From: Patescibacteria group bacterium
GTDB lineage: Bacteria; Patescibacteriota; Microgenomatia; UBA1400; UBA1449
DNA: 64,000 bases
Direction: 5' to 3'
NCBI GenBank assembly: GCA_050942955.1
Contig: JBMNOG010000003.1
Coordinates: 3,049 to 67,048 of the forward strand
Under the pieces are notes generated by a model, which saw only the letters and a program-made list of their open reading frames with translations, did no database searches and had not been told where the DNA came from. Below are positions 1-20,082 of the stretch, one piece after another (positions within the stretch are counted from its first letter, which is position 1; every line of letters starts with the position of its first letter). The position numbers were made by a program, and so were the translations under genes.

Positions 1-28
1 TAATGAAAAAGTCTGGCTTGATACGCTT

Positions 29-2614
29 GTGGAAGGAGTACTTGGTATCTACTTCACTCCTTCTCAATTTGACGAAAACAAAAATACAGTTACTTCTGAG
101 GAAAGACGGCAACTGGAGCAGTTGTACAAAGAACATACTGAAGCAGTGCGTGCCGAAGCAGATGCCAGAGAAGGAACTGGAGTTTTAGTTACTGCTGATA
201 AGGTTAACTTAAAACAGCAACTGGAACTCATCGCTAAATACCGTGCAGAAAACATTGAACCTCTTAAGCAAGAAATTATAGAAGAGTTAATTACGAACTC
301 AGACCTGGATTTCGAAGATAGATATAAAGCCCAAGTTATTGAAGAGGCCATAGACAAGGTCGCCGAAAACGTAGTGCACCTAAAAGCAAACACTGTTATC
401 CGCGGTGAAGAAATAACTCCGGAAAAAACTCAGGCAGTTATAGAGCAAACGTTAGTCAAAAATCAAAAAGGGAGAATAATAAATACGCTAGGGGTTGGAG
501 CAAAAATAAGTGAATACGTTAAAGCTAAACCTCCTCAGAATTTCTCTCAATCATCTCTTAAGTATATAGATGCCAACCAAAAAGTAGCGCCAAACTTACA
601 TACCGTTATTGGTTACTATAAACGATGTGGACTTTCTTCAGACCAGGCTTTCACAGCCGCTCACTATTTTGATAAGTACAGCCAGAACGAGACGGTAGAC
701 AAAGCATTTCAAAAAGCCGCCCATGAAGTAGTTGGCAAGCAGTTTGACAAAATGTTTGTTAAAAACATTAGGCAAGGAATCGACGAAGAGGTACTTCCAC
801 CTAGCTATGTCTTAACCAGCCTTCGGACATTGGAGCGCTACCAACAAGACAGGACCTTCTATTTTACAAAGTCCGGAAAACTACACCTTGACTCAATTAA
901 GACAGCAGAAGGCAATGTTTCTATCGACCAAATACAACTGGATCTAAATAAAGAAAGAGCTCGTGAAGGATTAGAGTTCTTTACAAGACAACAGGTTGAA
1001 ACTGCTGTTTTAGGTCAAAATTTTTTAGATATAGTACATGAGCAGGAAGGTGCAAGATTAACAAGAAAAGGGGTAGTTTTTAGCGAAGCAGAACAACGTT
1101 TAAATCAGGTTTACCAGACACAACTGGCTGTTATTCAAGACATAAGAAACACGGCTCATAGAACCAGTCATTCTGAACTTTTTTCTAGAGATTACTTCGA
1201 TCCTTCCCACAGAACTCTGCCCGCAATTTTCCTAAGTGATGCAGTATATGAAGAAACGATATGGCAAGCGACCGATACTGCCGCCTCAGTAGAAGCTTCA
1301 TTAAATAATGATGTTGTTGTCAATATTGTCTCCTCTGAAGGAAAAAAGTATGTCAGTAGTCGGTTGAACACTTTTAAGAACCGTTTTGGTAATTCTCTTA
1401 TCACCAAAGCTGAACAGTGGGCAGTTGAAAACATGGCAAAGAAGGGATTAAAGGGGTTAGCGGCAAAGGGCTTGAGCAAACTCATTGGTGCCAGCATTCC
1501 GGTTCTCAATGCCATCGTTGCTGTTGACACTGCTTTAGAGTTAGCTGAAAAATTACCAGTAGTCGGTATTATTGCTAGACCGATAAAGGGGTTATGGGAT
1601 GGTCTCAAAAAGGCTGCCCTGGTTTTAGGCGGGACAGCCATTGCTGGGGTAGCTACCCTTGCCACATTCCTAATATCTAAGTTTGTAGGAGTTGTTGTTA
1701 GCGGGGGAATCGGAGCTATTGCTGGAGGAGTTGTTGGTGGAATCATTGGTTCTTCTTTTGGTCCATGGGGCACTGTTGCCGGAATCGGTATTGGTTCAAC
1801 CATTGGTACAAAAGCGAGTTTGTGGTTCTCTAACAGTGGGGGATTTTCTGGCTTGGCAACGAAAGCATCATCTGCAACAAGCTCAGTACTATCAGCCGGC
1901 GGAGGAGTAGTTGTCATCGCCGCACCAATTATTGCCATAAGTGCAGTGGCAGCCACAACTATGCTTATTAACAGTTCGCTTATGGCCGCATTTTCCTTAC
2001 CGCCATTTGACCAGCTTACCGAGTATTATCAAAACCTTCCTTATACTTCATTGTCTTGCGAAGACAGTAATGGTAACCCCATAGAAATCCCGGCAGGCTT
2101 TGCCAATGGGTTTCCTCTACAAGAAGGGCAAGTAACCGCAGGAACTTTCATGCACACCGGCAGAAGTGTTCACACAAACGCAATTGATATCGCTGTAAAA
2201 CCTGGAACAGAAGTTTTTGCTACCCACGATGGAGTCGTTAGGTTTGCCGGAATACAAGGTAGTCTGACTACTGGATACGGTAGGGTGGTCTTTTTGCAGG
2301 GCAGTGCTGAGGGTAAGGCATTTGAAACTCGCTACGCTCACCTACTTAGTATAGAAGAAGGAATCGTATCAGGAGCTGCAGTAAAGAGAGGAAAACGAAT
2401 CGGGTTGGTTGGCTCAACAGGCAACAGTAGTGGTCCGCATATTCATTATGAGTTAGTTGCAGACCAGTATTTTTCAAAAATTAATATTGCCTGTACACTT
2501 CCGATTAGTAATGATGCTAGAAACAGAATTATGAATGGTCAGAAAACAGGTACTGGGTGTTTAGGAGCTACACAATGCAATATTGATCTTACAAAAGATA
2601 TAATTAGCAACTAG
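29..2614 (+). CDS. Large membrane-spanning protein with a C-terminal M23 (LytM) peptidase domain. It has a long soluble coiled-coil-like N-terminal region and a glycine-zipper-rich transmembrane block at roughly aa 480-650. The true start is probably upstream of the window: the reading frame is open back to position 2.
   Basis: 861-aa ORF. The C-terminal region carries M23 metallopeptidase signatures (HTGRSVHTNAIDIAV..., GYGRVVFLQG..., HLLSIEEG..., GSTGNSSGPHIHYEL). The Gly/Ala/Ile-rich stretch (GGIGAIAGGVVGGIIG...) is typical of multi-pass or tape-measure-like proteins. There is no stop codon between window position 2 and the annotated GTG at position 29. Confidence 0.6.
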   Translation: MEGVLGIYFTPSQFDENKNTVTSEERRQLEQLYKEHTEAVRAEADAREGTGVLVTADKVNLKQQLELIAKYRAENIEPLKQEIIEELITNSDLDFEDRYKAQVIEEAIDKVAENVVHLKANTVIRGEEITPEKTQAVIEQTLVKNQKGRIINTLGVGAKISEYVKAKPPQNFSQSSLKYIDANQKVAPNLHTVIGYYKRCGLSSDQAFTAAHYFDKYSQNETVDKAFQKAAHEVVGKQFDKMFVKNIRQGIDEEVLPPSYVLTSLRTLERYQQDRTFYFTKSGKLHLDSIKTAEGNVSIDQIQLDLNKERAREGLEFFTRQQVETAVLGQNFLDIVHEQEGARLTRKGVVFSEAEQRLNQVYQTQLAVIQDIRNTAHRTSHSELFSRDYFDPSHRTLPAIFLSDAVYEETIWQATDTAASVEASLNNDVVVNIVSSEGKKYVSSRLNTFKNRFGNSLITKAEQWAVENMAKKGLKGLAAKGLSKLIGASIPVLNAIVAVDTALELAEKLPVVGIIARPIKGLWDGLKKAALVLGGTAIAGVATLATFLISKFVGVVVSGGIGAIAGGVVGGIIGSSFGPWGTVAGIGIGSTIGTKASLWFSNSGGFSGLATKASSATSSVLSAGGGVVVIAAPIIAISAVAATTMLINSSLMAAFSLPPFDQLTEYYQNLPYTSLSCEDSNGNPIEIPAGFANGFPLQEGQVTAGTFMHTGRSVHTNAIDIAVKPGTEVFATHDGVVRFAGIQGSLTTGYGRVVFLQGSAEGKAFETRYAHLLSIEEGIVSGAAVKRGKRIGLVGSTGNSSGPHIHYELVADQYFSKINIACTLPISNDARNRIMNGQKTGTGCLGATQCNIDLTKDIISN

Positions 2615-2619
2615 ACAAA

Positions 2620-3636
2620 ATGCTTTTACAAAAACGAAAAGTCTCACTAATTTCCGGACTCATACTCGCAGCTGTCGCCATAGCTTTAATAAGTGTAGTT
2701 TTATCAGTTGCAAAAAAGAGGCAGGCTATCCCTCCTCAGACACTACCCCAAACATCCCTGCCTCCGACTGAACAACAATTCTCCCTAAAATACAGCTATT
2801 TAGGAGAGTTACCAACCCTTCAGAGATCTGCTCCTGTATATACTTTTGAAGGTGAACAGATGCTAAATCAAGAGAGAGCTCTGGAGCTAGCAGCCCCCTG
2901 GGGATACTCTGGTGAGCCTCAAAGCTTTCCTGACACTTCAGGGACTGTGTTTGTATTTACTGATACAAACACCTCACTTACTATTTATTCCAGTCCCGCC
3001 CATCTTGAGTACATCGATTTTACAGAAAAACCTTTAGCAGCAATGCTTAGTGAAGAAGAACTACTAAATACTGCCTCTCTCTTCCTTTCGCAACGATTGT
3101 CTCATAGTAGACTCTTTGCATTGAGTAAGCCCTATATTACTTATAAGACCAGTGATGGTTTTAATATGTTTGACACAAGTTCCTTAGAGCAAGCAGACTA
3201 CGTAGAGCTGCGTTATACCTATACACTTGAAAGTCTTCCTGTTATTAGCAAAGAAACTCAGGATCACCCAATCGTACTACTCTTAAACGTAGATGGTTCA
3301 GTACGAAAAGCCAGCATTACTCTCTTTACTGAAAATCTTACTCCTCTTGGGACTACTCAACTTACAAAACCTCAAGAAGCCCTTAATGCTGTAAATAGTG
3401 GTTTAGGAACAATTTCAACACTACATGACCCCGAAGTCGCCTACACTCAAGTCCAACCTCAATCAATAACCCAAGCTGCCTTTCACTCTTTAGAGCTCAT
3501 TTATATTTATGATGCAGACAATCGGCAGATTCTTCCCTATTACCGCTTTTCAGGAATTGCTACCACAATTGATGAAAGGCGGTTGGAGATTGAGGTACTT
3601 CTAACTGCTTTACCTCAAGAAGTATTCCAAAAATAA
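2620..3636 (+). CDS. Hypothetical membrane-anchored protein. It has one N-terminal transmembrane helix and a Pro/Gln-rich linker.
   Basis: 338-aa ORF lying 5 nt after the stop of the upstream gene, so probably co-transcribed. N-terminal hydrophobic helix LISGLILAAVAIALISVVLSV. I recognise no known catalytic motif. Confidence 0.45.
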   Translation: MLLQKRKVSLISGLILAAVAIALISVVLSVAKKRQAIPPQTLPQTSLPPTEQQFSLKYSYLGELPTLQRSAPVYTFEGEQMLNQERALELAAPWGYSGEPQSFPDTSGTVFVFTDTNTSLTIYSSPAHLEYIDFTEKPLAAMLSEEELLNTASLFLSQRLSHSRLFALSKPYITYKTSDGFNMFDTSSLEQADYVELRYTYTLESLPVISKETQDHPIVLLLNVDGSVRKASITLFTENLTPLGTTQLTKPQEALNAVNSGLGTISTLHDPEVAYTQVQPQSITQAAFHSLELIYIYDADNRQILPYYRFSGIATTIDERRLEIEVLLTALPQEVFQK

Positions 3637-3640
3637 ATTG

Positions 3641-3713
3641 TGCGCGAACTAGGACTCGAACCTAGAACCACCAAGGTATAAGCTTGGCGCTCTACCAATT
3701 GAGCTATTCGCGC
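3641..3713 (-). tRNA. tRNA with anticodon UAU (DNA TAT). This is an Ile2-type tRNA that would read AUA. It is 73 nt long with no encoded CCA.
   Basis: The reverse complement folds into a canonical cloverleaf. Acceptor stem GCGCGAA/TTCGCGC. D-stem GCTC/GAGC. Anticodon stem CCAAG/CTTGG with loop CTTATAC (U33, anticodon TAT, A37). Variable loop TGGTT. T-stem CTAGG/CCTAG with T-loop TTCGAGT. Discriminator A. Confidence 0.65.
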
Positions 3714-3775
3714 ATCAGGGGAATTATACCAATAAATATCTACCCAGTTAATCCCTAAGCCTGAATGGCAAAACG

Positions 3776-6106
3776 TTACAATTTGGCTCTCTGGGCAATT
3801 TCAGCTTCAACCAACTCGCGGTCTTTTCCGTACTTAAGCCTCGACAACTGGACAATCATCTTCCCCAGTTTGGGGTTTTTTAGTTTGTTGTAGATATCCA
3901 TATCTTTGGAGAGATCTAAAGTAAACGGGGGAACAGGTTCATTGTTTACAATAGTTTTGCAAAAAATGTTGTAGCGTTCAATATTGATAAGATCAGTTTC
4001 TGTAAATACTGGCTGAAACTCGTGCTGAAGGTAGTTGGCATCCGTTACTCCTACACGGAACGCAACTAAAGTACCAACGTTACCAAAGATAGCGTTCTTG
4101 ACTTCATCCTCAATCTGACCAATAAACTGATTAGCAACAATTAAATTAAGATGATACTTTCTAGCCTCAGAAAGGATCTGGGCAAAGTCAGGAGTAGCAA
4201 AGTTCTGGAACTCGTCAACATATAAGTAAAAGTCAGGCCGCTGGTCTTCAGGTACGTCTTGTCTACTCATAGCGGCTAGTAATATCTTAGGAACCAGTAA
4301 AAGCCCCAAAAAGTTAGAGTTCTCTTCCCCTATTCTCCCCTTAGCAAGGTTAATAAGTAAAATCTTCTTCTCATCCATAACTTTCCGAAAATCAAATGCC
4401 GATGAACTTTGCCCAATAATATTTCTCATCATCTTATCAGTAACGAAACGACCGAACTTTGAGGTAATGTAGTCAAGAACTTCAGATTTATGGAAATCAG
4501 AAGTCTGGGCAATTTGATCCGTCCAGTAACGCCTGACAACCGGATCTTTAACTTTCGGTAGTAGTTCCTGGACAAACTTAGGATCAGTTAAAACCCTAAC
4601 GACTTCAATAAATGTCGAGCCCTTTTCGGACATAACCGTTAGCATGGCATTTCTGATAGCGTGTTCAAACCGTGGACCAATAATACCTGTTTTGTGAGGA
4701 TCATAAAGCTTGTACATAAGGCCAATAATAGCCGAGGCAACAAAGTGTTTCTGCTCTTCGGTATATGCTTCCATAATATTCATACCCATTGGCCGTTCCG
4801 TATCAGCCGGATTAAAGTAAATTACATCTTCTGCCCTTTCAGGAGGGATAAACTCAAGGATCTGTTCAACTGTGTCATGTGGATCAATAAAACAGACTCC
4901 ATGACCAGCTCTAATATCCTGGAGAATCAGATCAGTTAACATAACAGACTTACCTGTACCGGTTTTACCAATAATGTACATGTGCCGCTGGCGGTCTTTG
5001 TCGCTGATATACACATGTCTAGTAGTACCTCGATAAACATTTCTACCTAAATATGTACCTTCATGAGGAATACCGACCGGTGCCGGAGCCCGCTTGGCCG
5101 AGAGCCAGTGAATATGAGGTGTCTCCACGCTTTTATTGGGAAAGTGAAAAATAGTTGCCAGTTCTTCTGCAGATAGCACTGATTTACCTCCAAATATTGG
5201 TTGGTAACGGTAGATAAAATCAATCATAAAGGAGTGTTTAAATAATCTAAATTTCGGTTTAGTAAAACTGTTTAAGTCCGAACTAAACTGTTTAAAAACC
5301 CCAGTTAAATTATTAAGATGCATCTTGGCTCTAGGCAAATCAGTTGATGAAGCAACTATTCTAATAGTTGTATGAAAACCAACCTTGGAACACTTGTTCT
5401 CAATTGCATCATAGGTTTTGGGATCAATATTGTACTTCGCTTTCTCAGGATCAGATTCGTTTTTCTTGGTTTTAGAAATGTAGCTTTTTCCTGTATGGCT
5501 CCAGGTGTTATCAGCTGGAGAAATGATAATCTGGACAGCACAGCCTTCGCCATCACCCATCTTAGCCAGGGCTGAAGTAAGTGAAGACAGAGGATCAGTA
5601 GCTAAGTCTTTATAGACTTTTATAGGATTGTAGCTACTGGACTTAAGAATAAGGTTTGTATATGCAACTTTGCCATCTTCGGAAAAAATGTTGTACTCAT
5701 CGACTTCCCTAACATCTGCCGCTGGGTACGCTCCGAATATTTGTTTTTCAACTAAATCCTGAAGTTCTCTTGGTACAGCCACATAAAAACGAATGTCCTC
5801 CTTTTTGCCAACTATTTCAAAAGAGAGGTGTGGTTGAGCGCTAAGTTTTCCTTCCAAGCCAGACTTGTATATCGAGTGCAGTGAAGCAAACATCTGTTCT
5901 GCCGCATCAATTTTGATTTCATTATCCCGAGGTAGCGCTACCTGAAGCAAAACTGTATCTAGTGATACTTCCTCACGCTTCCGAAACTTGAAAAAGAGAA
6001 AGGCAAGGTAACCGACTATCCCAATACCGGTTAATGAAAGTAATGCAGTTACCGTTAAAACAAAGAAGTAACTAACTTGGCTGGTAAATGTTGATATTGG
6101 ATCCAT
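3776..6106 (-). CDS. Type IV secretion or conjugation-type P-loop ATPase. It is VirB4/VirD4 (TraG/TraD/TrwB)-like, with an N-terminal transmembrane anchor.
   Basis: 776 aa. N-terminal hydrophobic segment. Walker A HMYIIGKTGTGKSV. Walker B LYVDEFQNF. The RKYHLNLIVANQ motif is typical of VirB4, T4CP and HerA ATPases. I cannot decide between VirB4 and VirD4 from motifs alone. Confidence 0.6.
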   Translation of the reverse strand: MDPISTFTSQVSYFFVLTVTALLSLTGIGIVGYLAFLFFKFRKREEVSLDTVLLQVALPRDNEIKIDAAEQMFASLHSIYKSGLEGKLSAQPHLSFEIVGKKEDIRFYVAVPRELQDLVEKQIFGAYPAADVREVDEYNIFSEDGKVAYTNLILKSSSYNPIKVYKDLATDPLSSLTSALAKMGDGEGCAVQIIISPADNTWSHTGKSYISKTKKNESDPEKAKYNIDPKTYDAIENKCSKVGFHTTIRIVASSTDLPRAKMHLNNLTGVFKQFSSDLNSFTKPKFRLFKHSFMIDFIYRYQPIFGGKSVLSAEELATIFHFPNKSVETPHIHWLSAKRAPAPVGIPHEGTYLGRNVYRGTTRHVYISDKDRQRHMYIIGKTGTGKSVMLTDLILQDIRAGHGVCFIDPHDTVEQILEFIPPERAEDVIYFNPADTERPMGMNIMEAYTEEQKHFVASAIIGLMYKLYDPHKTGIIGPRFEHAIRNAMLTVMSEKGSTFIEVVRVLTDPKFVQELLPKVKDPVVRRYWTDQIAQTSDFHKSEVLDYITSKFGRFVTDKMMRNIIGQSSSAFDFRKVMDEKKILLINLAKGRIGEENSNFLGLLLVPKILLAAMSRQDVPEDQRPDFYLYVDEFQNFATPDFAQILSEARKYHLNLIVANQFIGQIEDEVKNAIFGNVGTLVAFRVGVTDANYLQHEFQPVFTETDLINIERYNIFCKTIVNNEPVPPFTLDLSKDMDIYNKLKNPKLGKMIVQLSRLKYGKDRELVEAEIAQRAKL

Positions 6107-6167
6107 GCTTATCTCTTAAGTAAATAAAGCTTTATAGACTAATTAAAATATTTATTGTAACACACAT

Positions 6168-6761
6168 TTATTGTGTGTCTTTTTTATAAAACACCCGCCC
6201 TGGATACAATAAAATGTTCCTGTGACACCATTCAGCAAGCCAGCGAATAGAGTCAACGACTTTATGGTGAAAAGCTTTTTCAATTTCTTCCTCATCTATA
6301 GGAAGTACGATGTTTGGTCTGGCTATTTGCGTGGATTTGATTAAAATTTCACCATATTCATCTTTTACTGGCTTTGGTAAAGTAACTGTTTGCGGGTTAG
6401 GGATTTCTTCTACCCACTCTTTTAATTCCAATGGTGGTTCAAACTCAGCCGCTACTTCTCTTACCGGCACTCTTTCAGGAGAAGTTGTTCCGGTTGTTTG
6501 TTCCTGCCTCTCCTTGTCTCGACTACCTACTGTTTGAACTTTTGTATCTGTTTTCTTTTGTGATGCAATAAGTTCTTGCAGTTCTTTATCTAAAGTATCA
6601 ACCGGCTTTTGTTTTTTTGTTAATTTCTGAACCTCTTGGGTTTCTTCATGTTTCTTTTTTTCTTCGAGCTGCGTGATTTGAGACTGAAGTTTGGCAACTG
6701 TTTGAGATGAAACCGAATCATCCTGAGACGAAACGGGTGAGTTTGGGGCAGAGTGATCCAT
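6168..6761 (-). CDS. Hypothetical protein. It has a low-complexity, charged coiled-coil N-terminal half and a conserved C-terminal region.
   Basis: 197-aa ORF packed tightly between cobA and the T4SS ATPase on the same strand. Ser/Gln/Lys/Glu-rich. No recognised motif. Confidence 0.4.
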   Translation of the reverse strand: MDHSAPNSPVSSQDDSVSSQTVAKLQSQITQLEEKKKHEETQEVQKLTKKQKPVDTLDKELQELIASQKKTDTKVQTVGSRDKERQEQTTGTTSPERVPVREVAAEFEPPLELKEWVEEIPNPQTVTLPKPVKDEYGEILIKSTQIARPNIVLPIDEEEIEKAFHHKVVDSIRWLAEWCHRNILLYPGRVFYKKDTQ

Positions 6762-6773
6762 GAAGATATGATA

Positions 6774-7397
6774 TCAAAAATCCAAACCTTTTACTGCTTT
6801 ATTTCCCAGATCATAGGGATGTTTTACCTTTTGCATTTGGGTTACTAAATCTGCGGACTCAACTAGCTCTTGAGTTGCATTTCTGCCAGTTAAAACAAGG
6901 TGAGTTTTCCCTCTTTTTTCAATCATCTGTTTAACCTTTTTCCAATCCAGCAGCTTCTCGGAAAGTGCATTACAGATCTCATCACAAACAATAACGTTGT
7001 ACTTTTCTTGTTTAAGTAATTCTTCAGTTTTTGAAAGTGCTTTCTCAGCCTCCTTTCTATGCTCTTCTGGGGTAGCTGTGTCTAAAACCACTCCGCCTCC
7101 TTTAAGTGAAGCTGTCTTTTGTTTTTCCGAAATTTTTGAGCTTTGAGCTGCTTTCTTTGCACTTAGCACTTGGCTCTTTGCGCTTTGTATATAAAACCCT
7201 CTTCCTAACACAAAAAAGTCTATGGGCATAAACTGAGGAAGTCTAAACTCGCTTATCTTCCAGGAAGCTTCTTTGTACCAGGCTATCCAGCCGACTTTCA
7301 GTCCAGCACAAACAGCTCTTACTGCCACCCCTAAGGCCGCGGAAGTTTTTCCTTTGCCATCTCCTGTAAAAACATACACCAGACCCTTTTGTTTCAT
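6774..7397 (-). CDS. cobA: Cob(I)alamin (cob(I)yrinic acid a,c-diamide) adenosyltransferase of the CobA/BtuR/CobO family.
   Basis: P-loop VFTGDGKGKTSAALGVAVRA. C-terminal HLVLTGRNATQELVESADLVTQMQKVKHPYDLGNKAVKGLDF, which aligns with the BtuR C-terminus. The protein carries a low-complexity insert. Confidence 0.8.
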   Translation of the reverse strand: MKQKGLVYVFTGDGKGKTSAALGVAVRAVCAGLKVGWIAWYKEASWKISEFRLPQFMPIDFFVLGRGFYIQSAKSQVLSAKKAAQSSKISEKQKTASLKGGGVVLDTATPEEHRKEAEKALSKTEELLKQEKYNVIVCDEICNALSEKLLDWKKVKQMIEKRGKTHLVLTGRNATQELVESADLVTQMQKVKHPYDLGNKAVKGLDF

Positions 7398-8065
7398 AGT
7401 TCTCCCATAGATTTAGTTTCTTTTTTCACTGCTTCTTCCCAGTTTGGTTTCAACGGAACATCAAAGCTTTTTAATATTACCTCTAGCTTTGGCAAAGGCA
7501 AACCAATTATGCCTGTCATACTACCATCAGTTTTTTCTACAAATGCCTCACCCAGTTCCTGGATAGCATACCCGCCCGCTTTATCCAGAGGTTTATTGGT
7601 TTCAACATAGTTTTCAATAAGCGAATCGGAAACAGGCTTAAAGGTAACACTAGAAACCGAGAAGTCAGTCATAAAGCGGTTTATTCTAGTATTGAGAACA
7701 GATATACCAGTAAAGACTTTATGGGTTCTGCCACACAAGCTCCTAAGCATTTTCTTAGCTCCTTCAAGGTCTTCAGGCTTACCAAATACGTGCCATTTTG
7801 CATCTTTTTCTAAAACAACAATAGTGTCGGCAGAAATAATAATAGTTTCACTTTCCCCATTACCTGATGCGTCTTTTGTAGGCAATCTTCCAACAACCTC
7901 TTTAGCTTTCGCTAAAGCTAGTTTAACTACCAATTCTTCAGGGGTTCTGGCGAGTTTAACAAACGCTTCTTCATTAAGATTGCTGGGAATAATTTGAAAC
8001 GTATCAATAATAAGTGAAAGCAGGTCTTTTCTTCTCGGAGATGAAGATGCCAGAATTATGTTCAT
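7394..8065 (-). CDS. maf: Maf-like nucleoside-triphosphate pyrophosphatase (house-cleaning, septum-associated).
   Basis: N-terminal ILASSSPRRKDLL Maf signature. Its 4-nt overlap with cobA suggests translational coupling. Confidence 0.75.
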   Translation of the reverse strand: MNIILASSSPRRKDLLSLIIDTFQIIPSNLNEEAFVKLARTPEELVVKLALAKAKEVVGRLPTKDASGNGESETIIISADTIVVLEKDAKWHVFGKPEDLEGAKKMLRSLCGRTHKVFTGISVLNTRINRFMTDFSVSSVTFKPVSDSLIENYVETNKPLDKAGGYAIQELGEAFVEKTDGSMTGIIGLPLPKLEVILKSFDVPLKPNWEEAVKKETKSMGEL

Positions 8066-8079
8066 AGGGGTATTGTACC

Positions 8080-8412
8080 TTATTTGTCAGGTTCAAATTC
8101 CCCGTTTCCCAATCGCTTCTCCAACCTTTTAAGCATCGCTCTATATTCTTTTTCTAAATCAATGTCATACTTTGTTGCCATCATAAAAAGGACATCCAGT
8201 ATATCGCAAAGAGAATCAGCTAGCCCTTCTTCGCCTTGCCAAGCCCTTCTTTTTGGTTTGGCTTTTTCAGCAACGAGGATCGCATTTGCAAGTTCCCCAA
8301 CTTCTTCCACCAAATCAACAAAGGTTGTCTTCTTATCCCACTGAACCGGAAACTTTTGGTGTAAGAGCTTGGTTTTTTCCTGAAGAGCCCTGAGAGATTT
8401 TAAATTTTTCAT
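8080..8412 (-). CDS. Small MazG-family nucleotide pyrophosphohydrolase.
   Basis: 110 aa. The EEVGELA...E.LAD..DVL pattern (VDLVEEVGELANAILV ... EEGLADSLCDILDVLFMM) is typical of MazG-like NTP-PPases. Confidence 0.7.
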   Translation of the reverse strand: MKNLKSLRALQEKTKLLHQKFPVQWDKKTTFVDLVEEVGELANAILVAEKAKPKRRAWQGEEGLADSLCDILDVLFMMATKYDIDLEKEYRAMLKRLEKRLGNGEFEPDK

Positions 8413-8430
8413 TTTAGGTTTTTAATTGTC

Positions 8431-10764
8431 TTACAAGCTGCATTTACTAAAACCGCAGTTAAGGCACATCGAGCAGCCTTCACTCATTTGCAGGGGAGAG
8501 CCGCACTCAGGACAGAGAGAGGTATCAGGCACTAAGTGCTGAGTGTTGGGTTTTTTAGTTTCAATACTTTTTCTTTGATTCTTAGCACTTAGATCTTCAT
8601 TCTTGGCACCTTCTCTCATCCGTTCCTTAAGTGACTTTATTTTAATTTTGCTTTGAATAATCGGCTCAGCTTTTTTCCTGGAACTAGATTTTAATTGCTC
8701 TACTTTCTGTGTCTTTTTTAAAATTTGAATGCTCTTTGAACCATCACGGTAGATAGTAATACCCTTACACCCTAATTTCCAGGCAAGAAGATAGGCTTTC
8801 TCAATATCTTCAATGGTTGCATTATGAGGAAAATTTATTGTTTTGGAAACAGCGTTATCTGTGTACTTTTGGAAAGCAGCCTGCATCCGCACGTGATCTT
8901 CCCAGGAAATGTCATGAGCTGTCACAAAAATGTTGCGGATTTTTGCCGGAATTGCCGATATTTCTTGACAGCTACCCGTTTTAACAACTTCTTCAATAAC
9001 CTCCTGCCGTTTATCTTTATTTGGAATTACTTCTTTTAAGACTTCTTCAAAGTAGGGATTAACATAGGTTAAGCCTTCATCTTCAACCACATTTTTAACG
9101 TATGAAAGTAGAAATACAGGTTCAATTCCGGAAGAACAGTTGGCAATCATAGAGATTGTTCCGGTTGGGGCAATGGTAGTAATTGCAAGGTTGCGTTGCT
9201 TCACTCCTTTTTTCTCATAAAGACTTCCTTTCCAGTTGGCAAACACCCCCTTTTCTTTAGCTAGTACCTCCGATTCGTTATGAGACACAGAGTAAATAAA
9301 ACGCATCACTTTTTCGGCTAAGCCAAGCGCTTCAGAAGAGTTGTAGGCAATCTCAAGCTGATAGAGCATATCCGCCCAACCCATAACCCCAAGACCAATC
9401 CTTCGATTTGCTTTAGCCATTTGTTCCACTTCAGGAATGGGGTATAAAGAGATATCCACCCCATTATCTAAAAATCTAACAGCCAATCTCACTACTTCTT
9501 CAAGCCTTTTCCAGTGTACTCTTTTTCCTGGCTTTTCTTCATTTTCGATGATAAATTTTGCTAAGTTAAGTGAACCCAAGTTACAGACATCAAACGGATG
9601 CAGAGGCTGTTCACCGCAGGGATTAGTAGCCTGGAGCGGACCAAGTGTTTCTAAAACCGGATTGTTGCGGTTAATTGTATCGAGATATATAACCCCGGGG
9701 TCACCCGTTCGCCAGGCTAGAGTAACTATTTGGTCAAATAAGCTGCGCGCCGGTATAGTTTGAACAATTTCTTTTGTTCGCGGGTTAAGAAGGTCAAAAT
9801 CCTTGTCTTTTTCTACTGCCTGCATAAATAGGTCGCTAACTCCTACGGAAATGTTAAAGTTATTAACTTCCTGTTCTTCGGTTTTGCAGGTGATAAAGTC
9901 TAAAATATCTGGGTGATCAACATTAAGAATCCCCATATTAGCCCCGCGCCGAAAGCCTCCCTGCATAATCTGTCTCGTAGCTGCATCAAAGACTTTCATA
10001 AAAGAAATCGGACCGGATGAGTAACCGCCGGAAGAAACAACATAATCACCTTTAGGACGAAGGGCACTAAAGTTAAAGCCTGTGCCGCCACCTTTTTGCT
10101 GGATAAGCGCCATCCACTTTACTGCATCAAAAATTCCTTCCATTGAGTCTTTAACTGGCAAAACAAAGCAGTTAGCAAGCATGCTTTTTTCAAGCCCGGC
10201 CGTGCGCAGATACCCTCCTGCCGGAACAAACTCAAAGGTGGTCATCATTCCTAGAAATGCTTTCTCCCACTTCTTTTTATCTCTTTTTTCGTTAGCTGCT
10301 ATCGCTTTAGCCACTCTTTCAAACAGTTGCTTGGGTGTTTCGACTACCTTTCCTTCATCATTGTGCCGAAGGTAGCGGCTTTCCATTACTTTAAGCTGGT
10401 TAAAGGTAAGTCCAAGGTCATCAGTAACTCCAATACTTTGTTTTGCTTCCCGTTCTTCCGTACGTTCTGCCCGGTAAAGAATGTAGGCTTTGGCCGTTTT
10501 GTAGTAGCCGGCAGCCATCAAAACCTGCTCAACGACATCCTGCATAGTTTCAACTGCAGGCGGCTGGCCGTTAACTGTTCGGGTAAAAAGATCGATGGCA
10601 ATAGGAGTCAGGCGTTTTGCTTCTCTGATACTTTTGTCTTTATCTTTAAGTTCTTTACTTCCTAAAAAAGCTTTGTACATGGCTTGAGTCACTTTGTTAG
10701 GATCAAAGTTAACTAATCTGCCGTCGCGCTTTTGGATTTGAGTAATGGGGTTATGAGATGACAT
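8431..10764 (-). CDS. nrdJ: Class II (adenosylcobalamin-dependent) ribonucleotide reductase, paralog 1. It has an N-terminal ATP-cone.
   Basis: 777 aa. N-terminal ATP-cone-like region (KRDGRLVNFDPNKV ... AKAYILYRAERTE). CFVLP and TNPCGEQPL active-site motifs. C-terminal zinc ribbon CPECGSPLQMSEGCSMCLNCG. Confidence 0.9.
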   Translation of the reverse strand: MSSHNPITQIQKRDGRLVNFDPNKVTQAMYKAFLGSKELKDKDKSIREAKRLTPIAIDLFTRTVNGQPPAVETMQDVVEQVLMAAGYYKTAKAYILYRAERTEEREAKQSIGVTDDLGLTFNQLKVMESRYLRHNDEGKVVETPKQLFERVAKAIAANEKRDKKKWEKAFLGMMTTFEFVPAGGYLRTAGLEKSMLANCFVLPVKDSMEGIFDAVKWMALIQQKGGGTGFNFSALRPKGDYVVSSGGYSSGPISFMKVFDAATRQIMQGGFRRGANMGILNVDHPDILDFITCKTEEQEVNNFNISVGVSDLFMQAVEKDKDFDLLNPRTKEIVQTIPARSLFDQIVTLAWRTGDPGVIYLDTINRNNPVLETLGPLQATNPCGEQPLHPFDVCNLGSLNLAKFIIENEEKPGKRVHWKRLEEVVRLAVRFLDNGVDISLYPIPEVEQMAKANRRIGLGVMGWADMLYQLEIAYNSSEALGLAEKVMRFIYSVSHNESEVLAKEKGVFANWKGSLYEKKGVKQRNLAITTIAPTGTISMIANCSSGIEPVFLLSYVKNVVEDEGLTYVNPYFEEVLKEVIPNKDKRQEVIEEVVKTGSCQEISAIPAKIRNIFVTAHDISWEDHVRMQAAFQKYTDNAVSKTINFPHNATIEDIEKAYLLAWKLGCKGITIYRDGSKSIQILKKTQKVEQLKSSSRKKAEPIIQSKIKIKSLKERMREGAKNEDLSAKNQRKSIETKKPNTQHLVPDTSLCPECGSPLQMSEGCSMCLNCGFSKCSL

Positions 10765-10775
10765 AGTTTAAAAAC

Positions 10776-12737
10776 CTACAGTTTACACTGACTCCACCCG
10801 CATTCATGACAGGTAGCACAGCCTTCGGATTTAACGATACGGGCCCCGCATTCAGGACAGGAAGAGGTGCTCAGTGCTGAGTTCTGGGTACTAAGATTTT
10901 CAGTTTTACTAACCTTTTCTATAAGATCACTATTCGTGTCCAACTTCGTACTTGGTACTTCGTACTTAGTACTTTTGACATTCAATACCTGATCCTGTTT
11001 ACTGCCGTCGCGGTAGATCGTAATTCCCTTGCACCCTAACCGCCAAGCAAGCATATATGCGTTGCGCACATCTTCAGCTGTTGCGTTATGAGGAAAATTA
11101 ATCGTTTTGGAGACGGAATTGTCAAAATGTTTCTGCCAGGCAGCCTGAATTCGGACATGCCACTCAGGTTCAATCTGATGAGAAGTAACAAACAGTTTCT
11201 TTTCTTTTTTGTTCAGGTGCTCAACACTACCAAGGTTTCCTTCTGCCGCTATTGTTTCCAAAACACTCCTAACCTCTTTCTTTGTTAGACCCTTTGTTTT
11301 CAGATACTCTTCAAACTCAGGGTCAATCATCATTAACTCTTCTGTCGGCCGATTTTTTTTATCATCTTCAAAAAAGGTTTTTCGCAGGGTCACTAAAGAA
11401 AAAACAGGTTCAATTCCGGAAGAACAATTGGCCAGCATAGAGATAGTGCCGGTTGGGGCAATCATTGTGAGAGCGCAATTTCGGTACCGTTCCGCACTGC
11501 CAGCATAAATTGACCGGTCCCAGTTGGGGAATACACCCCGTTCTTTGCCAAGCTCTAAAGACATTTCTTCAGCTTTGCGTCTGATAAACTTAGCTAACCT
11601 TTCCGAAAGCCTGATAGCTTCTTCGCTGTTGTAGGGAATGCCAAGTTTAAAAAGCAAGTGAGCAAAGCCCATCACTCCAAGACCAATGCGACGGTTGCCG
11701 TTTTTTACCATTTCTTCAATTTCTTTAAGCGGATAGTTATTTACTTCGATCATATCGTCTAAAAGACGTACCGCTACTTTTATAGATTTTTCCAGATCAT
11801 CCCAGTCAATTTCATAACTACCGTTTTTATCTTTTACTATATGATTTGAAAGGATAATTGAAGTAAGGTTGCACGACTCATAGGGCAGTAGGGGTATCTC
11901 ACCGCAAGGGTTAGTACAGTTAATTACTCCCAGAGAAGGGGTGGGGTTATCTTCCTGCATTCTATCCAAAAAAGCCAGCCCTGGGTCACCTGTTGCCCAA
12001 GCGTGTTCAACGATTAAGTCAAATAGTTTTCGGGCTTTAATCTTTTTAACTACCTCCCCATTCCGGGGGTTAATAAGTTCCCAAGGTTTATCCTGCTCAA
12101 CTGCCTCCATAAACTCATTCGTTACTCCTACTGACACATTAAAGTTTTTAATCGTACCGTCTTCTTCTTTTAAAGTAATAAAGTCGATAATGTCAGGATG
12201 ATCAACATTTAAAACCCCAATGTTAGCGCCTTGTCTTTTTGAGCCTTGGAGAATTTTTGATAAAGCAGCCGAGTAGGCACTTAAGAAATCAACCGGGCCA
12301 GAAGCTGCACCAGGGACATTTTTAACTTTATCTCCACGGGGTCTGATTTTGGAAAAGTTGAAACCTGTGCCACCGTTATTTTTGTGAACAACTGCCGCAT
12401 CTCCTAAGGTTTTAAAAATTGAGTGGATATTATCTTCAACCGGTAAAACAAAGCAGGATGAAAGCTGGCCTGTACCCCCGGGATTGCCAGCTTCAAACAA
12501 GGCTTTACCGGCTACCACAAATTTCAAATTTACCATCCGCTCAAAAAACTGCTTAGCTGTTTTTTCAACAATTCCATTCATCCCCCAGTTGATCTCAGCC
12601 TTAGCAAGATGCTGGGCAACGCGCCAGAACATTTCTCCCGGAGTTTCGATTACATTCCCTTCCATATCTGTTCGCAAGTAGCGTTTTTCGGCAATCTTTT
12701 TCGCACTTTTAGTCAAGTTTGGTTCAGTAATTTTCAT
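10776..12737 (-). CDS. nrdJ: Class II ribonucleotide reductase, paralog 2. It has no ATP-cone.
   Basis: 653 aa. CFVLPVED and NPCGEIPL motifs. C-terminal CPECGARIVKSEGCATCHECG zinc ribbon. It sits 11 nt upstream of paralog 1. Confidence 0.85.
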   Translation of the reverse strand: MKITEPNLTKSAKKIAEKRYLRTDMEGNVIETPGEMFWRVAQHLAKAEINWGMNGIVEKTAKQFFERMVNLKFVVAGKALFEAGNPGGTGQLSSCFVLPVEDNIHSIFKTLGDAAVVHKNNGGTGFNFSKIRPRGDKVKNVPGAASGPVDFLSAYSAALSKILQGSKRQGANIGVLNVDHPDIIDFITLKEEDGTIKNFNVSVGVTNEFMEAVEQDKPWELINPRNGEVVKKIKARKLFDLIVEHAWATGDPGLAFLDRMQEDNPTPSLGVINCTNPCGEIPLLPYESCNLTSIILSNHIVKDKNGSYEIDWDDLEKSIKVAVRLLDDMIEVNNYPLKEIEEMVKNGNRRIGLGVMGFAHLLFKLGIPYNSEEAIRLSERLAKFIRRKAEEMSLELGKERGVFPNWDRSIYAGSAERYRNCALTMIAPTGTISMLANCSSGIEPVFSLVTLRKTFFEDDKKNRPTEELMMIDPEFEEYLKTKGLTKKEVRSVLETIAAEGNLGSVEHLNKKEKKLFVTSHQIEPEWHVRIQAAWQKHFDNSVSKTINFPHNATAEDVRNAYMLAWRLGCKGITIYRDGSKQDQVLNVKSTKYEVPSTKLDTNSDLIEKVSKTENLSTQNSALSTSSCPECGARIVKSEGCATCHECGWSQCKL

Positions 12738-12764
12738 AGTTATTTCTTATATGTTTATGCTATT

Positions 12765-12800
12765 TGACAAAGCTGATAGATTTTTTAATCAGCTTTGTCA
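12765..12800. promoter_or_regulatory. Perfect 13-bp inverted repeat with a 9-nt spacer in the RNR3-RNR2 intergenic region. It could be an operator, attenuator or terminator.
   Basis: TGACAAAGCTGAT-agatttttt-AATCAGCTTTGTCA. A second imperfect hairpin (TTCGTTTCC-tatct-GGAAAC-aga-AAACGAA) follows at about 12822-12850. Confidence 0.4.
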
Positions 12801-12850
12801 TGCTGAGTTTTTCGTTTCCTATCTGGAAACAGAAAACGAAGCGCTATTTT

Positions 12851-14950: not shown

Positions 14951-14951
14951 A

Positions 14952-20001: not shown

Positions 20002-20082
20002 TTTATTTCAGAAGATTTTAATTAATTAAACTTACGTTAACTTCCTGTTTTTTTGTAACAAGAGGGATGTTACAATCTTTTC

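What the first reader, a model, noticed from the sequence alone, without database searches (positions are those of the whole stretch)
1..6106. T4SS-like module flanking a tRNA: a giant M23-peptidase membrane protein plus a VirB4/VirD4-like ATPase
An 861+ aa protein with a glycine-zipper transmembrane block and a C-terminal M23 peptidase may be a cell-wall-breaching component, like VirB1-equivalent hydrolases or tape-measure-like proteins. It is followed by a membrane-anchored hypothetical, then the tRNA(UAU), then a 776-aa membrane-anchored Walker A/B ATPase of the VirB4/T4CP superfamily.

A T4SS-like ATPase next to a tRNA is reminiscent of integrative elements, but no integrase, relaxase or direct repeat is visible in the window.

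In reduced-genome episymbionts, T4SS-like systems have been implicated in host interaction and DNA uptake, so the module may be chromosomal rather than mobile. The first gene probably continues upstream of the window.
Basis: partly seen in the sequence, partly recalled or inferred. Interest (0 to 1): 0.55.

Follow-up and report, generated by a model that had tools for sequence, protein, structure and literature searches.

The report
Orphan coupling-type ATPase beside wall-hydrolase operon
This candidate-phyla-radiation chromosome carries a widespread, already-reported stand-alone relative of conjugation "coupling" ATPases that sits beside an unrelated, fast-evolving cell-wall-hydrolase operon found only in its closest relatives, so the two do not form one secretion module or a mobile element.

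Summary

The family is very large in Patescibacteria, which has already been reported (PMC12102498). Here it is strongly conserved (80–89% identity among close relatives) and chromosomal. A small gene almost always precedes it. In Microgenomatia, tRNA-Ile(UAU) follows it, then Xer and DivIC.

The M23 giant and the 338-aa protein belong to a separate four-gene operon that converges on the ATPase. The operon occurs only in a narrow Beckwithbacteria sub-clade, evolves fast (27–47% identity), and is absent from all 80 other loci.

I found no integrase, relaxase, tRNA repeat or compositional shift. About 12 kb upstream of the window there is an array of seven VirB2-like pilin genes plus a polytopic membrane protein. 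The neighbourhood is therefore T4SS-flavoured, but pilin–ATPase proximity elsewhere is no better than chance. Overall this is a new member of a known kind, of modest interest.

The parts
2..2614 (+). C-terminal 870 aa of a 896-949-aa membrane protein (the 'M23 giant'). The start codon lies 76 or 235 nt upstream of the window. It has a soluble N-terminal part of about 560 aa with no signal peptide, then a TM block, then an M23 domain.
   Evidence: ORF. Full length from the identical contigs L001/L002. Pfam Peptidase_M23 at 70 bits. Homologues only in the sub-clade, at 27% identity.
1469..1987 (+). Gly/Ala-rich block of about 4-5 transmembrane helices (glycine-zipper type) in the M23 giant.
   Evidence: Hydropathy and composition, coordinates checked. 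Pfam Gly-zipper hit below cut-off. Weak PHROG tape-measure similarity over this stretch.
2177..2461 (+). M23 (LytM-type) metallopeptidase domain. The HxH and 'YAH' histidines are present. The first zinc-ligand motif is non-canonical (H-x4-D).
   Evidence: Alignment to solved M23 enzymes at 1e-14. In the sub-clade alignment the first His is replaced in 2 of 4 homologues.
2620..3636 (+). 338-aa protein with a single N-terminal TM anchor. It is the last gene of the M23 operon (5-nt gap to the M23 gene; the two overlap in relatives).
   Evidence: No family hit.
3640..3713 (-). tRNA-Ile with anticodon UAU. It is on the same strand as the ATPase and 62 nt downstream of it.
   Evidence: ARAGORN and Rfam at 74.7 bits. 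The same tRNA follows the ATPase in about 23 of 80 loci and in all close relatives.
3723..3751 (-). Promoter-like site (TTAACT-17-TATAAT with an extended TG) directly upstream of the tRNA.
   Evidence: Consensus scan, 10 of 12 matches. This is a pattern match only.
3776..6106 (-). 776-aa membrane-anchored ATPase of the DUF8128 + T4CP-like family (an orphan coupling-protein homologue).
   Evidence: Pfam TrwB_AAD_bind 31.9 bits (cut-off 20.5) and TraG-D_C 26.7 bits (cut-off 22). PF26449 precomputed on record. More than 7,800 homologues. 5,905 clusters at 50% identity with E<=1e-30.
5984..6079 (-). N-terminal hydrophobic anchor (residues 10-41), followed by the basic stretch KFRKRE, which suggests the rest of the protein is cytoplasmic.
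   Evidence: Hydropathy. Modelled as one long helix. Coordinates checked.
5063..5983 (-). DUF8128 domain (residues 42-348), which has the fold of the VirB4/TrwK N-terminal domain.
4946..4969 (-). Walker A motif GKTGTGKS.
   Evidence: G380, G383, G385 and K386 are invariant in the diverse alignment A2; all but T384 are invariant in the close alignment A1.
4199..4231 (-). Walker B region FYLYVDEFQNF.
   Evidence: Y629 and D631-N635 are invariant in A2.
6168..6761 (-). 197-aa acidic, probably disordered protein with a conserved C-terminal helix (…DSIRWLAEW…). It lies directly upstream of the ATPase on the same strand (61-nt gap) and is a candidate partner.
   Evidence: A small same-strand ORF abuts the ATPase in 64 of 73 loci. 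Homologues of p197 itself were found in 4 distant loci and all close relatives. The three class-specific groups of such ORFs show no detectable homology to each other.
6774..15392 (-). Same-strand housekeeping genes upstream of the ATPase: CobA-type adenosyltransferase, Maf, a MazG-like protein, three ribonucleotide-reductase genes, and NrdR. These are context, not part of any secretion system.
   Evidence: Pfam and NCBIfam. NrdR by tblastn. The RNR context is conserved in Microgenomatia.

Best explanation
Two independent units lie next to each other.

Unit 1 (window 3640-6761, minus strand) is a small acidic protein, a 776-aa ATPase and tRNA-Ile(UAU). The ATPase is a monoderm-type type IV coupling protein (T4CP) homologue. 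It has a single membrane anchor, a cytoplasmic domain with the VirB4 N-domain fold (DUF8128), and a RecA-like P-loop domain with intact Walker motifs. In Patescibacteria this gene has become an 'orphan': it is vertically inherited, strongly constrained and chromosomal, and it is detached from VirB4 and relaxase genes. Inferred: it forms a membrane-bound hexamer that uses ATP either to feed substrates to the lineage's T4SS-like apparatus encoded elsewhere, or for a derived, exapted task.

Unit 2 (from upstream of the window to 3636, plus strand) is a fast-evolving four-gene envelope operon specific to one sub-clade. It encodes a Zn-ribbon protein, an HExxH membrane protein, the M23 giant and an anchored 338-aa protein. 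Inferred: it remodels or breaches peptidoglycan at the cell surface, or regulates that process. In this sub-clade it occupies the position that Xer and DivIC hold in other Microgenomatia. Further upstream, strain-specific genes include seven VirB2-like pilins.

Nothing marks the region as a mobile element.
For: ATPase identity:
- Only the T4CP Pfam families pass their cut-offs.
- The family profile hits TrwB (8e-07) and DotL (7e-06) among solved structures, and no VirB4.
- The nearest annotated plasmid genes all carry T4CP-type names.
- An Embleya homologue (30% identity, 7e-52) has the same DUF8128 N-domain (hhalign 97.5%). It lies between a separate VirB4-type ATPase (P-loop_TraG, AAA_10) with PrgI/VirB3 on one side and a Replic_Relax protein with an NlpC/P60 hydrolase on the other.

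Orphan, core and chromosomal status:
- More than 7,800 homologues, with a steady length of about 776 aa among the 120 closest.
- 80-89% identity where the neighbouring genes are 27-58% identical.
- Housekeeping neighbours in every class: RNR, NrdR, DnaX, GyrB, Xer, DivIC, SmpB.
- tRNA-Ile(UAU) directly downstream in about 23 loci.
- The literature reports 5,713 T4CP homologues in 2,918 genomes, of which only 148 are near virB4 (PMC12102498).

Separateness of the M23 operon:
- It converges on the ATPase.
- None of 80 loci has an M23 or p338 gene within 10 kb of the ATPase.
- p338 has 7 homologues in total.
- Beckwithbacteria whose ATPases are 71-74% identical have Xer and DivIC at that position.

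Not mobile:
- No att-like repeat, uniform GC, no integrase or relaxase hit.
Against: - Within the sub-clade the M23 operon is always adjacent to the ATPase. The same contig also carries seven pilin genes, a polytopic 526-aa protein and a Cys-rich 1140-aa surface protein within 16 kb. A local functional association therefore cannot be excluded.
- Monoderm conjugation clusters do place a wall hydrolase next to the T4CP.
- Sequence scores against VirD4-like and VirB4 models are nearly equal (35 versus 32 bits), and full-length fold matches favour VirB4. The T4CP call rests mainly on Pfam cut-offs and the Embleya context.
- The function of the ATPase in any CPR organism is untested. The Saccharibacterial t4cp was reported as non-essential for epibiotic growth, which weakens the idea that it works with the essential T4SS.
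- The comparison loci had 10-kb flanks, whereas the pilin array here lies about 16 kb from the ATPase.
Confidence: 0.6

Rival explanations
1. One T4SS-like apparatus. Under this reading the pilin array, the polytopic 526-aa protein, the 1140-aa surface protein, the M23 operon and the DUF8128 ATPase together form a non-canonical pilus or secretion machine in this sub-clade. The ATPase, with its VirB4-like N-domain, would be the motor, and the M23 giant would be the wall-breaching component equivalent to VirB1.
For: - All seven pilin genes pass the PF18895 cut-off.
- The ATPase is the only Walker-A NTPase in the roughly 22-kb block.
- It has a VirB4 N-domain fold.
- Hydrolases accompany T4CPs in monoderm clusters.
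- Dojkabacteria-type loci again show pilins, then a SpoIID-domain hydrolase, within 8 kb of the ATPase.
- The M23 operon and the ATPase are adjacent in every sub-clade member examined.
Against: - Pilins lie within 10 kb of the ATPase in only 2-3 of 80 loci, which is about the chance expectation.
- The pilin, p526, p1140, p1214 and p302 genes have no counterparts in the relatives' loci examined, although those relatives share the M23 operon.
- The units are on different strands and are separated by a tRNA that has its own promoter-like site.
- A close relative is scored as having a VirB4.
- p526 and p1140 have no VirB6 or VirB1 family hits.
Confidence: 0.17
2. Exapted translocase. Under this reading the ATPase and its small partner no longer serve a T4SS. 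They would perform a core DNA- or division-related task, such as DNA translocation coordinated with Xer recombination and the divisome, or DNA uptake for nucleotide salvage.
For: - Conservation is unusually strong for a T4CP (80-89% identity).
- Almost none of these genes lies near virB4, and the literature raises exaptation.
- The recurrent neighbours are Xer (18 of 80 loci), DivIC (13), DnaX, GyrB and RNR/NrdR.
- Relatives on plasmids are mostly on non-mobilizable replicons (331 of 413).
- Full-length homologues occur in lytic Bacillus phages that have no T4SS.
Against: - The neighbour associations are convergent or merely syntenic, not operonic.
- Synteny within one class is weak evidence for a functional link.
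- TM7x is reported to have an annotated ftsK.
- The Saccharibacterial t4cp was reported as non-essential, which argues against a core role.
- No DNA-binding or gamma-like domain was identified.
Confidence: 0.2
3. Integrative or conjugative element, or prophage remnant, inserted at tRNA-Ile. The M23 giant would then be a tape-measure-like or conjugative hydrolase carried as cargo.
For: - The block begins exactly at the 3' side of the tRNA and replaces Xer and DivIC.
- Gene content beyond the four-gene operon differs between relatives.
- PHROG tape-measure and tail-lysin hits on the M23 giant.
- Large phage proteins with a C-terminal M23 domain exist among solved structures.
Against: - No integrase, relaxase, phage structural or packaging genes.
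- No repeat of the tRNA 3' end.
- GC content matches the flanking DNA.
- The operon's divergence (27-47%) across relatives whose ATPases are 80-89% identical fits long vertical residence.
- The ATPase-tRNA pair itself is ancestral.
Confidence: 0.04

Closest known systems
Patescibacteria T4CP (VirD4-like) homologues surveyed by Quiñonero-Coronel et al. 2025 (PMC12102498)
   Same: Same phylum and the same T4CP-type annotation. Like those homologues it is chromosomal, usually far from virB4, and has no relaxase. Assemblies of two relatives (GCA_001001885.1, GCA_012797845.1) are in that paper's dataset.
   Different: I could not confirm gene-by-gene that the paper's T4CP calls are this family, because its Table S3 is not held. 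The VirB4-like N-domain, the small upstream gene, the tRNA-Ile/Xer/DivIC synteny and the phage homologues do not appear in the sections of the paper that I read.
Monoderm conjugative coupling protein with a DUF8128 N-domain (Embleya sp. plasmid, WP_331738717.1)
   Same: Similar length (812 versus 776 aa), the same N-domain (hhalign 97.5%), and the same Pfam T4CP domains. The ATPase domain is 30% identical.
   Different: The Embleya gene sits between a VirB4-type ATPase with PrgI on one side and a Replic_Relax protein with an NlpC/P60 hydrolase on the other. The window gene has none of these neighbours.
TrwB/VirD4 (diderm T4CP; PDB 1E9R)
   Same: P-loop domain with a helical insertion. TrwB_AAD_bind passes the Pfam cut-off. 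The family profile hits TrwB at 8e-07, and Foldseek gives a target-normalised TM-score of about 0.5.
   Different: The solved TrwB (TrwBΔN70, about 435 residues) is essentially the nucleotide-binding domain, with no counterpart of the roughly 300-residue VirB4-like N-domain seen here. All NCBIfam T4CP scores are far below their cut-offs.
VirB4/TrwK (PDB 7O42)
   Different: No VirB4 family model reaches its cut-off (AAA_10 at 20.8 against 27.5; TIGR00929 at 32 against 643). A separate, genuine VirB4 co-occurs with a homologue of this family. The window protein carries its own membrane anchor.
PHROG 5156: Bacillus/Geobacillus phage proteins (phage G gp156, SPO1 gp27.4, TP-84)
   Same: Full-length homology that includes the N-domain (321 bits to the PHROG; tblastn 1e-40; Foldseek query-normalised TM-score 0.72).
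   Different: Identity is only 19-24%. The phage genes lie among unannotated genes, and their function is unknown.
Peptidoglycan hydrolases of monoderm T4SSs (VirB1 analogues such as the NlpC/P60 gene in the Embleya cluster) and phage tape-measure or internal proteins with C-terminal M23 domains
   Same: A large membrane-associated protein ending in a wall-hydrolase domain. M23 and LysM domains are reported on some CPR VirB1 homologues. There are PHROG tape-measure hits, and M23-bearing phage proteins appear among solved structures.
   Different: No lytic-transglycosylase or CHAP domain. No T4SS or phage genes in the same operon. The first zinc-ligand motif is atypical or lost in relatives. 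The N-terminal 560 aa has no homologue outside the sub-clade.

Membership tests
Type IV coupling protein (VirD4/TrwB/TraD) | P-loop NTPase domain with Walker A and Walker B motifs | tested here: met
   GKTGTGKS and FYLYVDEFQNF, conserved in the family alignments.
Type IV coupling protein (VirD4/TrwB/TraD) | Family models matched at curated thresholds | tested here: inconclusive
   Pfam TrwB_AAD_bind (31.9 against 20.5) and TraG-D_C (26.7 against 22) pass. All NCBIfam T4CP models fall far below their cut-offs, for example 52.6 against 366.
Type IV coupling protein (VirD4/TrwB/TraD) | N-terminal membrane anchor | tested here: met
   One hydrophobic segment of 32 residues (10-41).
Type IV coupling protein (VirD4/TrwB/TraD) | Acts as a second ATPase alongside a separate VirB4, next to relaxase or T4SS genes | tested here: not met
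   No VirB4, VirB3 or relaxase from about 16 kb upstream to 58 kb downstream. The feature is met for a homologue in Embleya.
Type IV coupling protein (VirD4/TrwB/TraD) | Hexameric ATPase that binds DNA or substrate and docks on the T4SS channel | not testable with these tools
   Requires biochemistry or multimer modelling.
VirB4 | VirB4-type N-terminal domain fold | tested here: met
VirB4 | VirB4 family models matched at curated thresholds | tested here: not met
   AAA_10 at 20.8 against 27.5. No CagE_TrbE_VirB hit at E <= 0.01. TIGR00929 at 32 against 643. No VirB4 chain hit by the family profile at E <= 1.
VirB4 | Adjacent membrane-embedded VirB3 partner | tested here: not met
   The upstream 197-aa protein has no TM segment and no PrgI/VirB3 hit.
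FtsK/SpoIIIE or HerA | Family models matched at curated thresholds | tested here: not met
   FtsK_SpoIIIE at 20.2 against 24 and DUF87 at 22.3 against 23.2. HerA chains score weaker than TrwB and DotL. The N-domain resembles VirB4, not HerA.
Peptidase M23 (LytM) | Domain model matched at threshold | tested here: met
   70 bits against a cut-off of 28.7. 1e-14 to solved M23 enzymes.
Peptidase M23 (LytM) | Zinc-ligand and catalytic motifs HxxxD and HxH | tested here: inconclusive
   HIH and YAH are invariant. The first motif is H-x4-D here, and the His is replaced by Y or L in 2 of 4 homologues.
Integrative/conjugative element or genomic island at a tRNA | Integrase and/or relaxase, direct repeat of the tRNA 3' end, atypical composition | tested here: not met
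   No Xer-like recombinase gene in the window or the close relatives' loci. No integrase or relaxase family recorded for the upstream genes. No repeat within 3 mismatches. GC 0.36-0.43 throughout.
Phage tail tape-measure protein | Lies in a phage tail gene cluster | tested here: not met
   There are weak PHROG hits on the M23 giant (4e-12), but no PHROG hits on any neighbouring gene.
VirB2-like T4SS pilin array (upstream of the window, L092 18854-22285) | PF18895 matched at threshold; two TM helices; tandem divergent copies | tested here: met
   Seven genes score 28.0-49 bits against a cut-off of 26.6. Each has two or more hydrophobic segments. This matches the arrays described in PMC12102498.

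The most novel reading that the evidence does not exclude
The DUF8128 ATPase and its small upstream partner form an autonomous machine that has been exapted away from type IV secretion. It would be retained under strong selection throughout Patescibacteria for a core DNA- or envelope-related task, possibly coordinated with Xer and DivIC, and it would share ancestry with enigmatic ATPases of lytic Bacillus phages. This would define a third functional branch beside VirB4 and VirD4.
Probability: 0.2. Interest if true: 0.65.

Novelty: new member of a known kind. Interest (0 to 1): 0.33.

Why it matters
Patescibacteria depend on host cells, and their T4SS-like machinery is essential in the one system tested. 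Yet their abundant coupling-protein homologues, about two per genome, have no assigned role.

This work shows that the family carries a VirB4-type N-domain, is among the most conserved genes in its neighbourhood, and travels with a small partner gene and housekeeping genes rather than with secretion genes. That sharpens the question of whether these ATPases still serve secretion or have been repurposed.

It also cautions against reading adjacency to a wall hydrolase as a secretion module. The practical gain is modest, because the family and its orphan status are already published.

Tried and rejected
1. A lytic-transglycosylase (VirB1-like) reading of the C-terminus of the 1140-aa upstream protein, based on motifs I recalled. 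It found no Pfam, NCBIfam or PDB support, so I dropped it.
2. A single conserved partner family upstream of the ATPase. The three class-specific groups show hhalign probabilities below 1%, so only the position is conserved.
3. A homologue search with the full M23 giant returned only the protein itself plus one weak M23-domain hit. Gly-rich words may have crowded the candidate list. Homologues at 27% identity were found only through synteny.
4. An exact-DNA scan of metagenome contigs to extend the contig upstream found nothing. The extension succeeded through the cluster look-up.
6. A fold search against AFDB50 was unavailable.
7. Defence-system models gave only generic P-loop similarity (mad8 at 57.9 bits, HerA) and nothing for the neighbours.
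8. Phage neighbourhoods of the homologues (TP-84, SPO1) gave no functional hint.
9. Sequence-model scores alone could not separate VirD4 from VirB4 (35.3 against 32.1 bits).
Full report
**Observation.**
The described features are real and lie at the stated coordinates.
- ORF 29..2614 (+) is open from base 2. It ends in a Peptidase_M23 domain (70 bits) and contains a Gly/Ala-rich transmembrane block.
- ORF 2620..3636 (+) encodes a 338-aa protein with one N-terminal TM segment.
- ARAGORN and Rfam place tRNA-Ile(UAU) at 3640..3713 (-).
- ORF 3776..6106 (-) encodes a 776-aa protein with a 32-residue anchor, Walker A GKTGTGKS and Walker B FYLYVDEFQNF.
- Two public Logan contigs contain the window sequence. 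One is identical over the 13.6 kb they share. They show that the first gene continues upstream, for a full length of 896-949 aa.

**The organism and its setting.**
The ATPase's exact sequence is recorded from a Patescibacteria MAG, and its closest relatives are Candidatus Beckwithbacteria (Microgenomatia). Downstream of the ATPase, the window's large ORFs are ordinary housekeeping genes:
- a CobA-type adenosyltransferase, Maf, a MazG-like protein, three ribonucleotide-reductase genes and NrdR;
- two class A PBPs, iPGM, DNA ligase, an ADP-forming acetyl-CoA synthetase type enzyme, pyruvate formate-lyase, a histidine kinase and PFOR.

**What the ATPase is.**
Sequence evidence:
- Only the coupling-protein Pfam families pass their gathering scores (TrwB_AAD_bind 31.9 against 20.5; TraG-D_C 26.7 against 22). 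DUF87, AAA_10 and FtsK_SpoIIIE fall below theirs.
- NCBIfam scores are all far below their cut-offs and barely separate VirD4-like from VirB4 (35.3 against 32.1 bits).
- A profile of diverse family members hits TrwB (8e-07) and DotL (7e-06) among solved structures, HerA more weakly, and VirB4 not at all.

Fold evidence:
- The full-length model (pLDDT 70) matches TrwK/VirB4 best over its whole length (2e-15, TM 0.3). TrwB aligns to the C-terminal half with a target-normalised TM-score of about 0.5.
- Modelling residues 42-348 alone (the region Pfam calls DUF8128) gave a confident model (pLDDT 88, pTM 0.87).

The architecture is therefore a membrane anchor, a VirB4-type N-domain and a T4CP-like P-loop domain.

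**VirB4 or VirD4?**
Comparative context settles this better than scores do.
- The nearest annotated plasmid relatives of the P-loop domain all carry T4CP-type names.
- On an Embleya plasmid, an 812-aa homologue (30% identity, 7e-52) has the same N-domain (hhalign 97.5%, 268 columns).
- That gene lies in a Gram-positive-type conjugation cluster: PrgI/VirB3, a separate 643-aa VirB4-type ATPase (P-loop_TraG, AAA_10, TraC_F_IV), this protein, a Replic_Relax protein and an NlpC/P60 hydrolase.

In that cluster the family member is the second ATPase, next to a genuine VirB4 and a relaxase-like gene, which is the position of a coupling protein. I therefore classify the window protein as a T4CP homologue of a monoderm subclass that retains a VirB4-like N-domain. 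It is not a VirB4, and it is not of the FtsK/HerA type.

**Distribution and conservation.**
- The family is very large. More than 7,800 relatives were scored in one search, and 5,905 clusters at 50% identity reach E <= 1e-30. Variants include forms of about 1,450 aa with the ATPase at the C-terminus and forms of 1,700-2,000 aa with long C-terminal extensions.
- Among close relatives the ATPase is 80-89% identical. Its neighbours are much less conserved: p197 55-58%, CobA 54-82%, p338 37-47% and the M23 giant 27%.
- Distant full-length homologues occur in Bacillus and Geobacillus phages (phage G gp156, SPO1 gp27.4, TP-84; PHROG 5156 at 321 bits). They share the N-domain fold.
- Published work already reports 5,713 VirD4-type T4CP homologues in 2,918 Patescibacteria genomes, only 148 of them near virB4. 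The Saccharibacterial t4cp was non-essential for epibiotic growth, and the authors raise exaptation (PMC12102498). Wang et al. 2023 note that there is no recognisable coupling protein within the essential T4SS cluster.

**Does the ATPase form a module with the M23 protein?**
I fetched 80 loci around homologues (40-68% identity) from genome representatives of many classes.
- None has an M23 gene, a p338 homologue, or any of the four upstream genes within 10 kb.
- What recurs is a small same-strand ORF abutting the ATPase start, present in 64 of the 73 loci with enough upstream sequence. It falls into class-specific groups that are not detectably homologous to each other.
- tRNA-Ile(UAU) lies directly downstream in about 23 loci.
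- A Xer-type tyrosine recombinase (18 loci) followed by DivIC (13 loci) lies beyond the tRNA.
- Other recurrent neighbours are class-specific housekeeping genes: RNR, NrdR and a PduO-type adenosyltransferase in Microgenomatia, DnaX in a second group of loci, and GyrB in Saccharimonadia-type loci.
- Beckwithbacteria whose ATPases are 71-74% identical also have partner-ATPase-Xer-DivIC-TrpRS.
- Only the closest relatives (ATPase at least 78% identical) have, in place of Xer and DivIC, the convergent operon p447 (Zn ribbon), TM230 (HExxH membrane protein), M23 giant and p338.
- A profile search with p338 finds just seven proteins in 5.8 billion. The M23 giant finds only itself.

The two units are transcribed towards each other across a tRNA that has its own promoter-like site.

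**Further upstream.**
Extending the source contig showed, beyond the M23 operon:
- two unannotated genes on the opposite strand (302 and 1214 aa);
- a polytopic 526-aa membrane protein with about 6-7 TM segments;
- a 1140-aa protein with an N-terminal anchor and 38 cysteines;
- seven tandem genes that all pass the Pfam cut-off for T4SS_pilin;
- then polyprenyl synthase and an ECF sigma factor.

Such VirB2-like arrays are a known hallmark of Patescibacteria T4SSs and are often distant from virB4. Several points limit the inference, however:
- These genes have no counterparts in the loci of relatives that share the M23 operon.
- An iterated pilin profile finds pilins within 10 kb of the ATPase in only 2-3 of 80 loci. 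Those are Dojkabacteria-type loci in which pilins precede a SpoIID-domain protein. That frequency is about what chance gives in a genome of about 1 Mb.
- p526 and p1140 have no VirB6 or VirB1 family or PDB hits.
- The ATPase is the only Walker-A protein in the block.
- A close relative's assembly is scored 'VirB4 present' in the published survey. This is compatible with a canonical motor encoded elsewhere, although I could not see which gene was called.

**Mobile or chromosomal?**
- The tRNA 3' end has no second copy, within 3 mismatches, in the window or in the 11 kb upstream. Other short repeats are at chance level.
- GC content is uniform.
- No integrase, relaxase or phage structural gene was found.
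- The ATPase-tRNA pairing is ancestral in Microgenomatia.
- The M23 operon has diverged in step with long residence.

The region is chromosomal. The replacement of Xer and DivIC by the envelope block looks like an old rearrangement rather than a recent insertion.

**The M23 giant.**
It has no signal peptide. A soluble, largely sub-clade-specific region of about 560 aa is followed by about 4-5 Gly/Ala-rich TM helices and then the M23 domain.
- The HxH and 'YAH' histidines are invariant.
- The first zinc-ligand motif reads H-x4-D here, and the histidine is absent in two of the four homologues. The domain may be catalytic in this genome, or it may be a LytM-type regulatory module.
- Weak PHROG similarity to tape-measure and tail-lysin proteins reflects this architecture. 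The neighbouring genes have no phage hits.

Inferred function: an envelope-embedded factor that remodels or breaches peptidoglycan, working with the HExxH membrane protein and the anchored p338. Whether it targets the cell's own wall or a host's is unknown.

**Mechanism, with what is shown and what is inferred.**
- Shown: the domain architecture, intact NTPase motifs, membrane anchoring, family membership at Pfam level, the T4CP position of a homologue in a true conjugation cluster, strong purifying selection, chromosomal synteny, and the separateness and narrow distribution of the M23 operon.
- Inferred: the ATPase hexamerises at the membrane and hydrolyses ATP to deliver or translocate a macromolecular substrate. 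The small acidic upstream protein may act as an adaptor.
- Whether the ATPase docks on the T4SS encoded elsewhere (my slight preference) or has been exapted cannot be decided here.

**Verdict.**
The finding is a correct observation with an over-extended interpretation. The ATPase is a new member of a published, abundant class of orphan T4CP homologues. The modestly new points are its VirB4-type N-domain, its phage relatives, and its conserved synteny with the small partner gene, tRNA-Ile and Xer/DivIC. The M23 operon is a lineage-specific envelope operon that merely abuts it.

Noticed in passing
L092 18854-22285 (about 11.5-15 kb upstream of window position 1, same contig): There is an array of seven tandem, divergent VirB2-like T4SS pilin genes (PF18895, 28-49 bits). 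It is followed by a 1140-aa protein with 38 cysteines and an N-terminal anchor, and by a polytopic 526-aa membrane protein. These genes have no counterparts in the loci of relatives that share the M23 operon.
   Followed up: partly
window 3640-3713 (-); also L003-L044, L083-L087: tRNA-Ile with anticodon UAU is an unusual way for bacteria to read AUA (from my own knowledge). It is a conserved immediate downstream neighbour of the ATPase in about 23 of 80 loci and in all close relatives.
   Followed up: partly
L004, L005, L043, L044, L090, L091 and others (downstream of the ATPase): A Xer-type tyrosine recombinase (Phage_integrase plus a SAM-like N-domain) faces the ATPase and tRNA and is followed by DivIC/FtsB. 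It occurs in 18 of 80 loci across several classes. It was not found in the window or in the close relatives' loci.
   Followed up: partly
window 8431-15392 (-) and 6774-7397 (-): There are three tandem ribonucleotide-reductase large-subunit-like genes plus NrdR, together with a CobA/BtuR-type corrinoid adenosyltransferase. Other Microgenomatia have a PduO-type adenosyltransferase in the same place. This looks like a B12-dependent RNR cluster.
   Followed up: no
L041 2066-8544 and L044 1701-9022: Dojkabacteria-type loci show pilins, then a coiled-coil protein with a SpoIID domain, a bPH_2 membrane protein and an unknown of 778-922 aa, just upstream of SmpB, the partner gene and the ATPase. This is a second case of a pilin array paired with a wall-hydrolase-domain protein.
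   Followed up: partly
phage records: Bacillus phage G gp155/gp156, SPO1 gp27.4 (L089 4803-7523), TP-84 (L088 5773-8037): Lytic Bacillus and Geobacillus phages encode full-length homologues of the DUF8128 ATPase (PHROG 5156, function unknown). Phage G has two adjacent genes with this N-domain fold.
   Followed up: partly
plasmid hits H16-H45: T4CP-named relatives of the ATPase domain lie mostly on non-mobilizable replicons (331 of 413), including many haloarchaeal and Streptomyces plasmids. The best hit (Sulfitobacter, 395 aa) lacks the N-domain and sits among transposases.
   Followed up: no
window 3776-5086 (-) (ATPase P-loop domain): The PADLOC model mad8 (from a methylation-associated defence system) matches the P-loop domain at 57.9 bits. 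No other defence components are nearby.
   Followed up: no
L003, L005-L008, L028, L047, L081 and others (record titles): Many genome-collection records that carry this typical Patescibacteria locus are titled 'uncultured Gammaproteobacteria', 'Bathyarchaeia', 'Limisphaerales' and so on. These look like mislabelled or mis-binned MAG contigs.
   Followed up: no
window 17695-22629 (+): Two class A penicillin-binding proteins (transglycosylase plus transpeptidase) lie in tandem.
   Followed up: no
L001 6378-7070 (+), about 0.3-1.0 kb upstream of window position 1: A 230-aa multi-pass membrane protein with an HEVSH motif precedes the M23 giant. It is the best-conserved gene of that operon (38-47% identity) but matches no family.
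   Followed up: no
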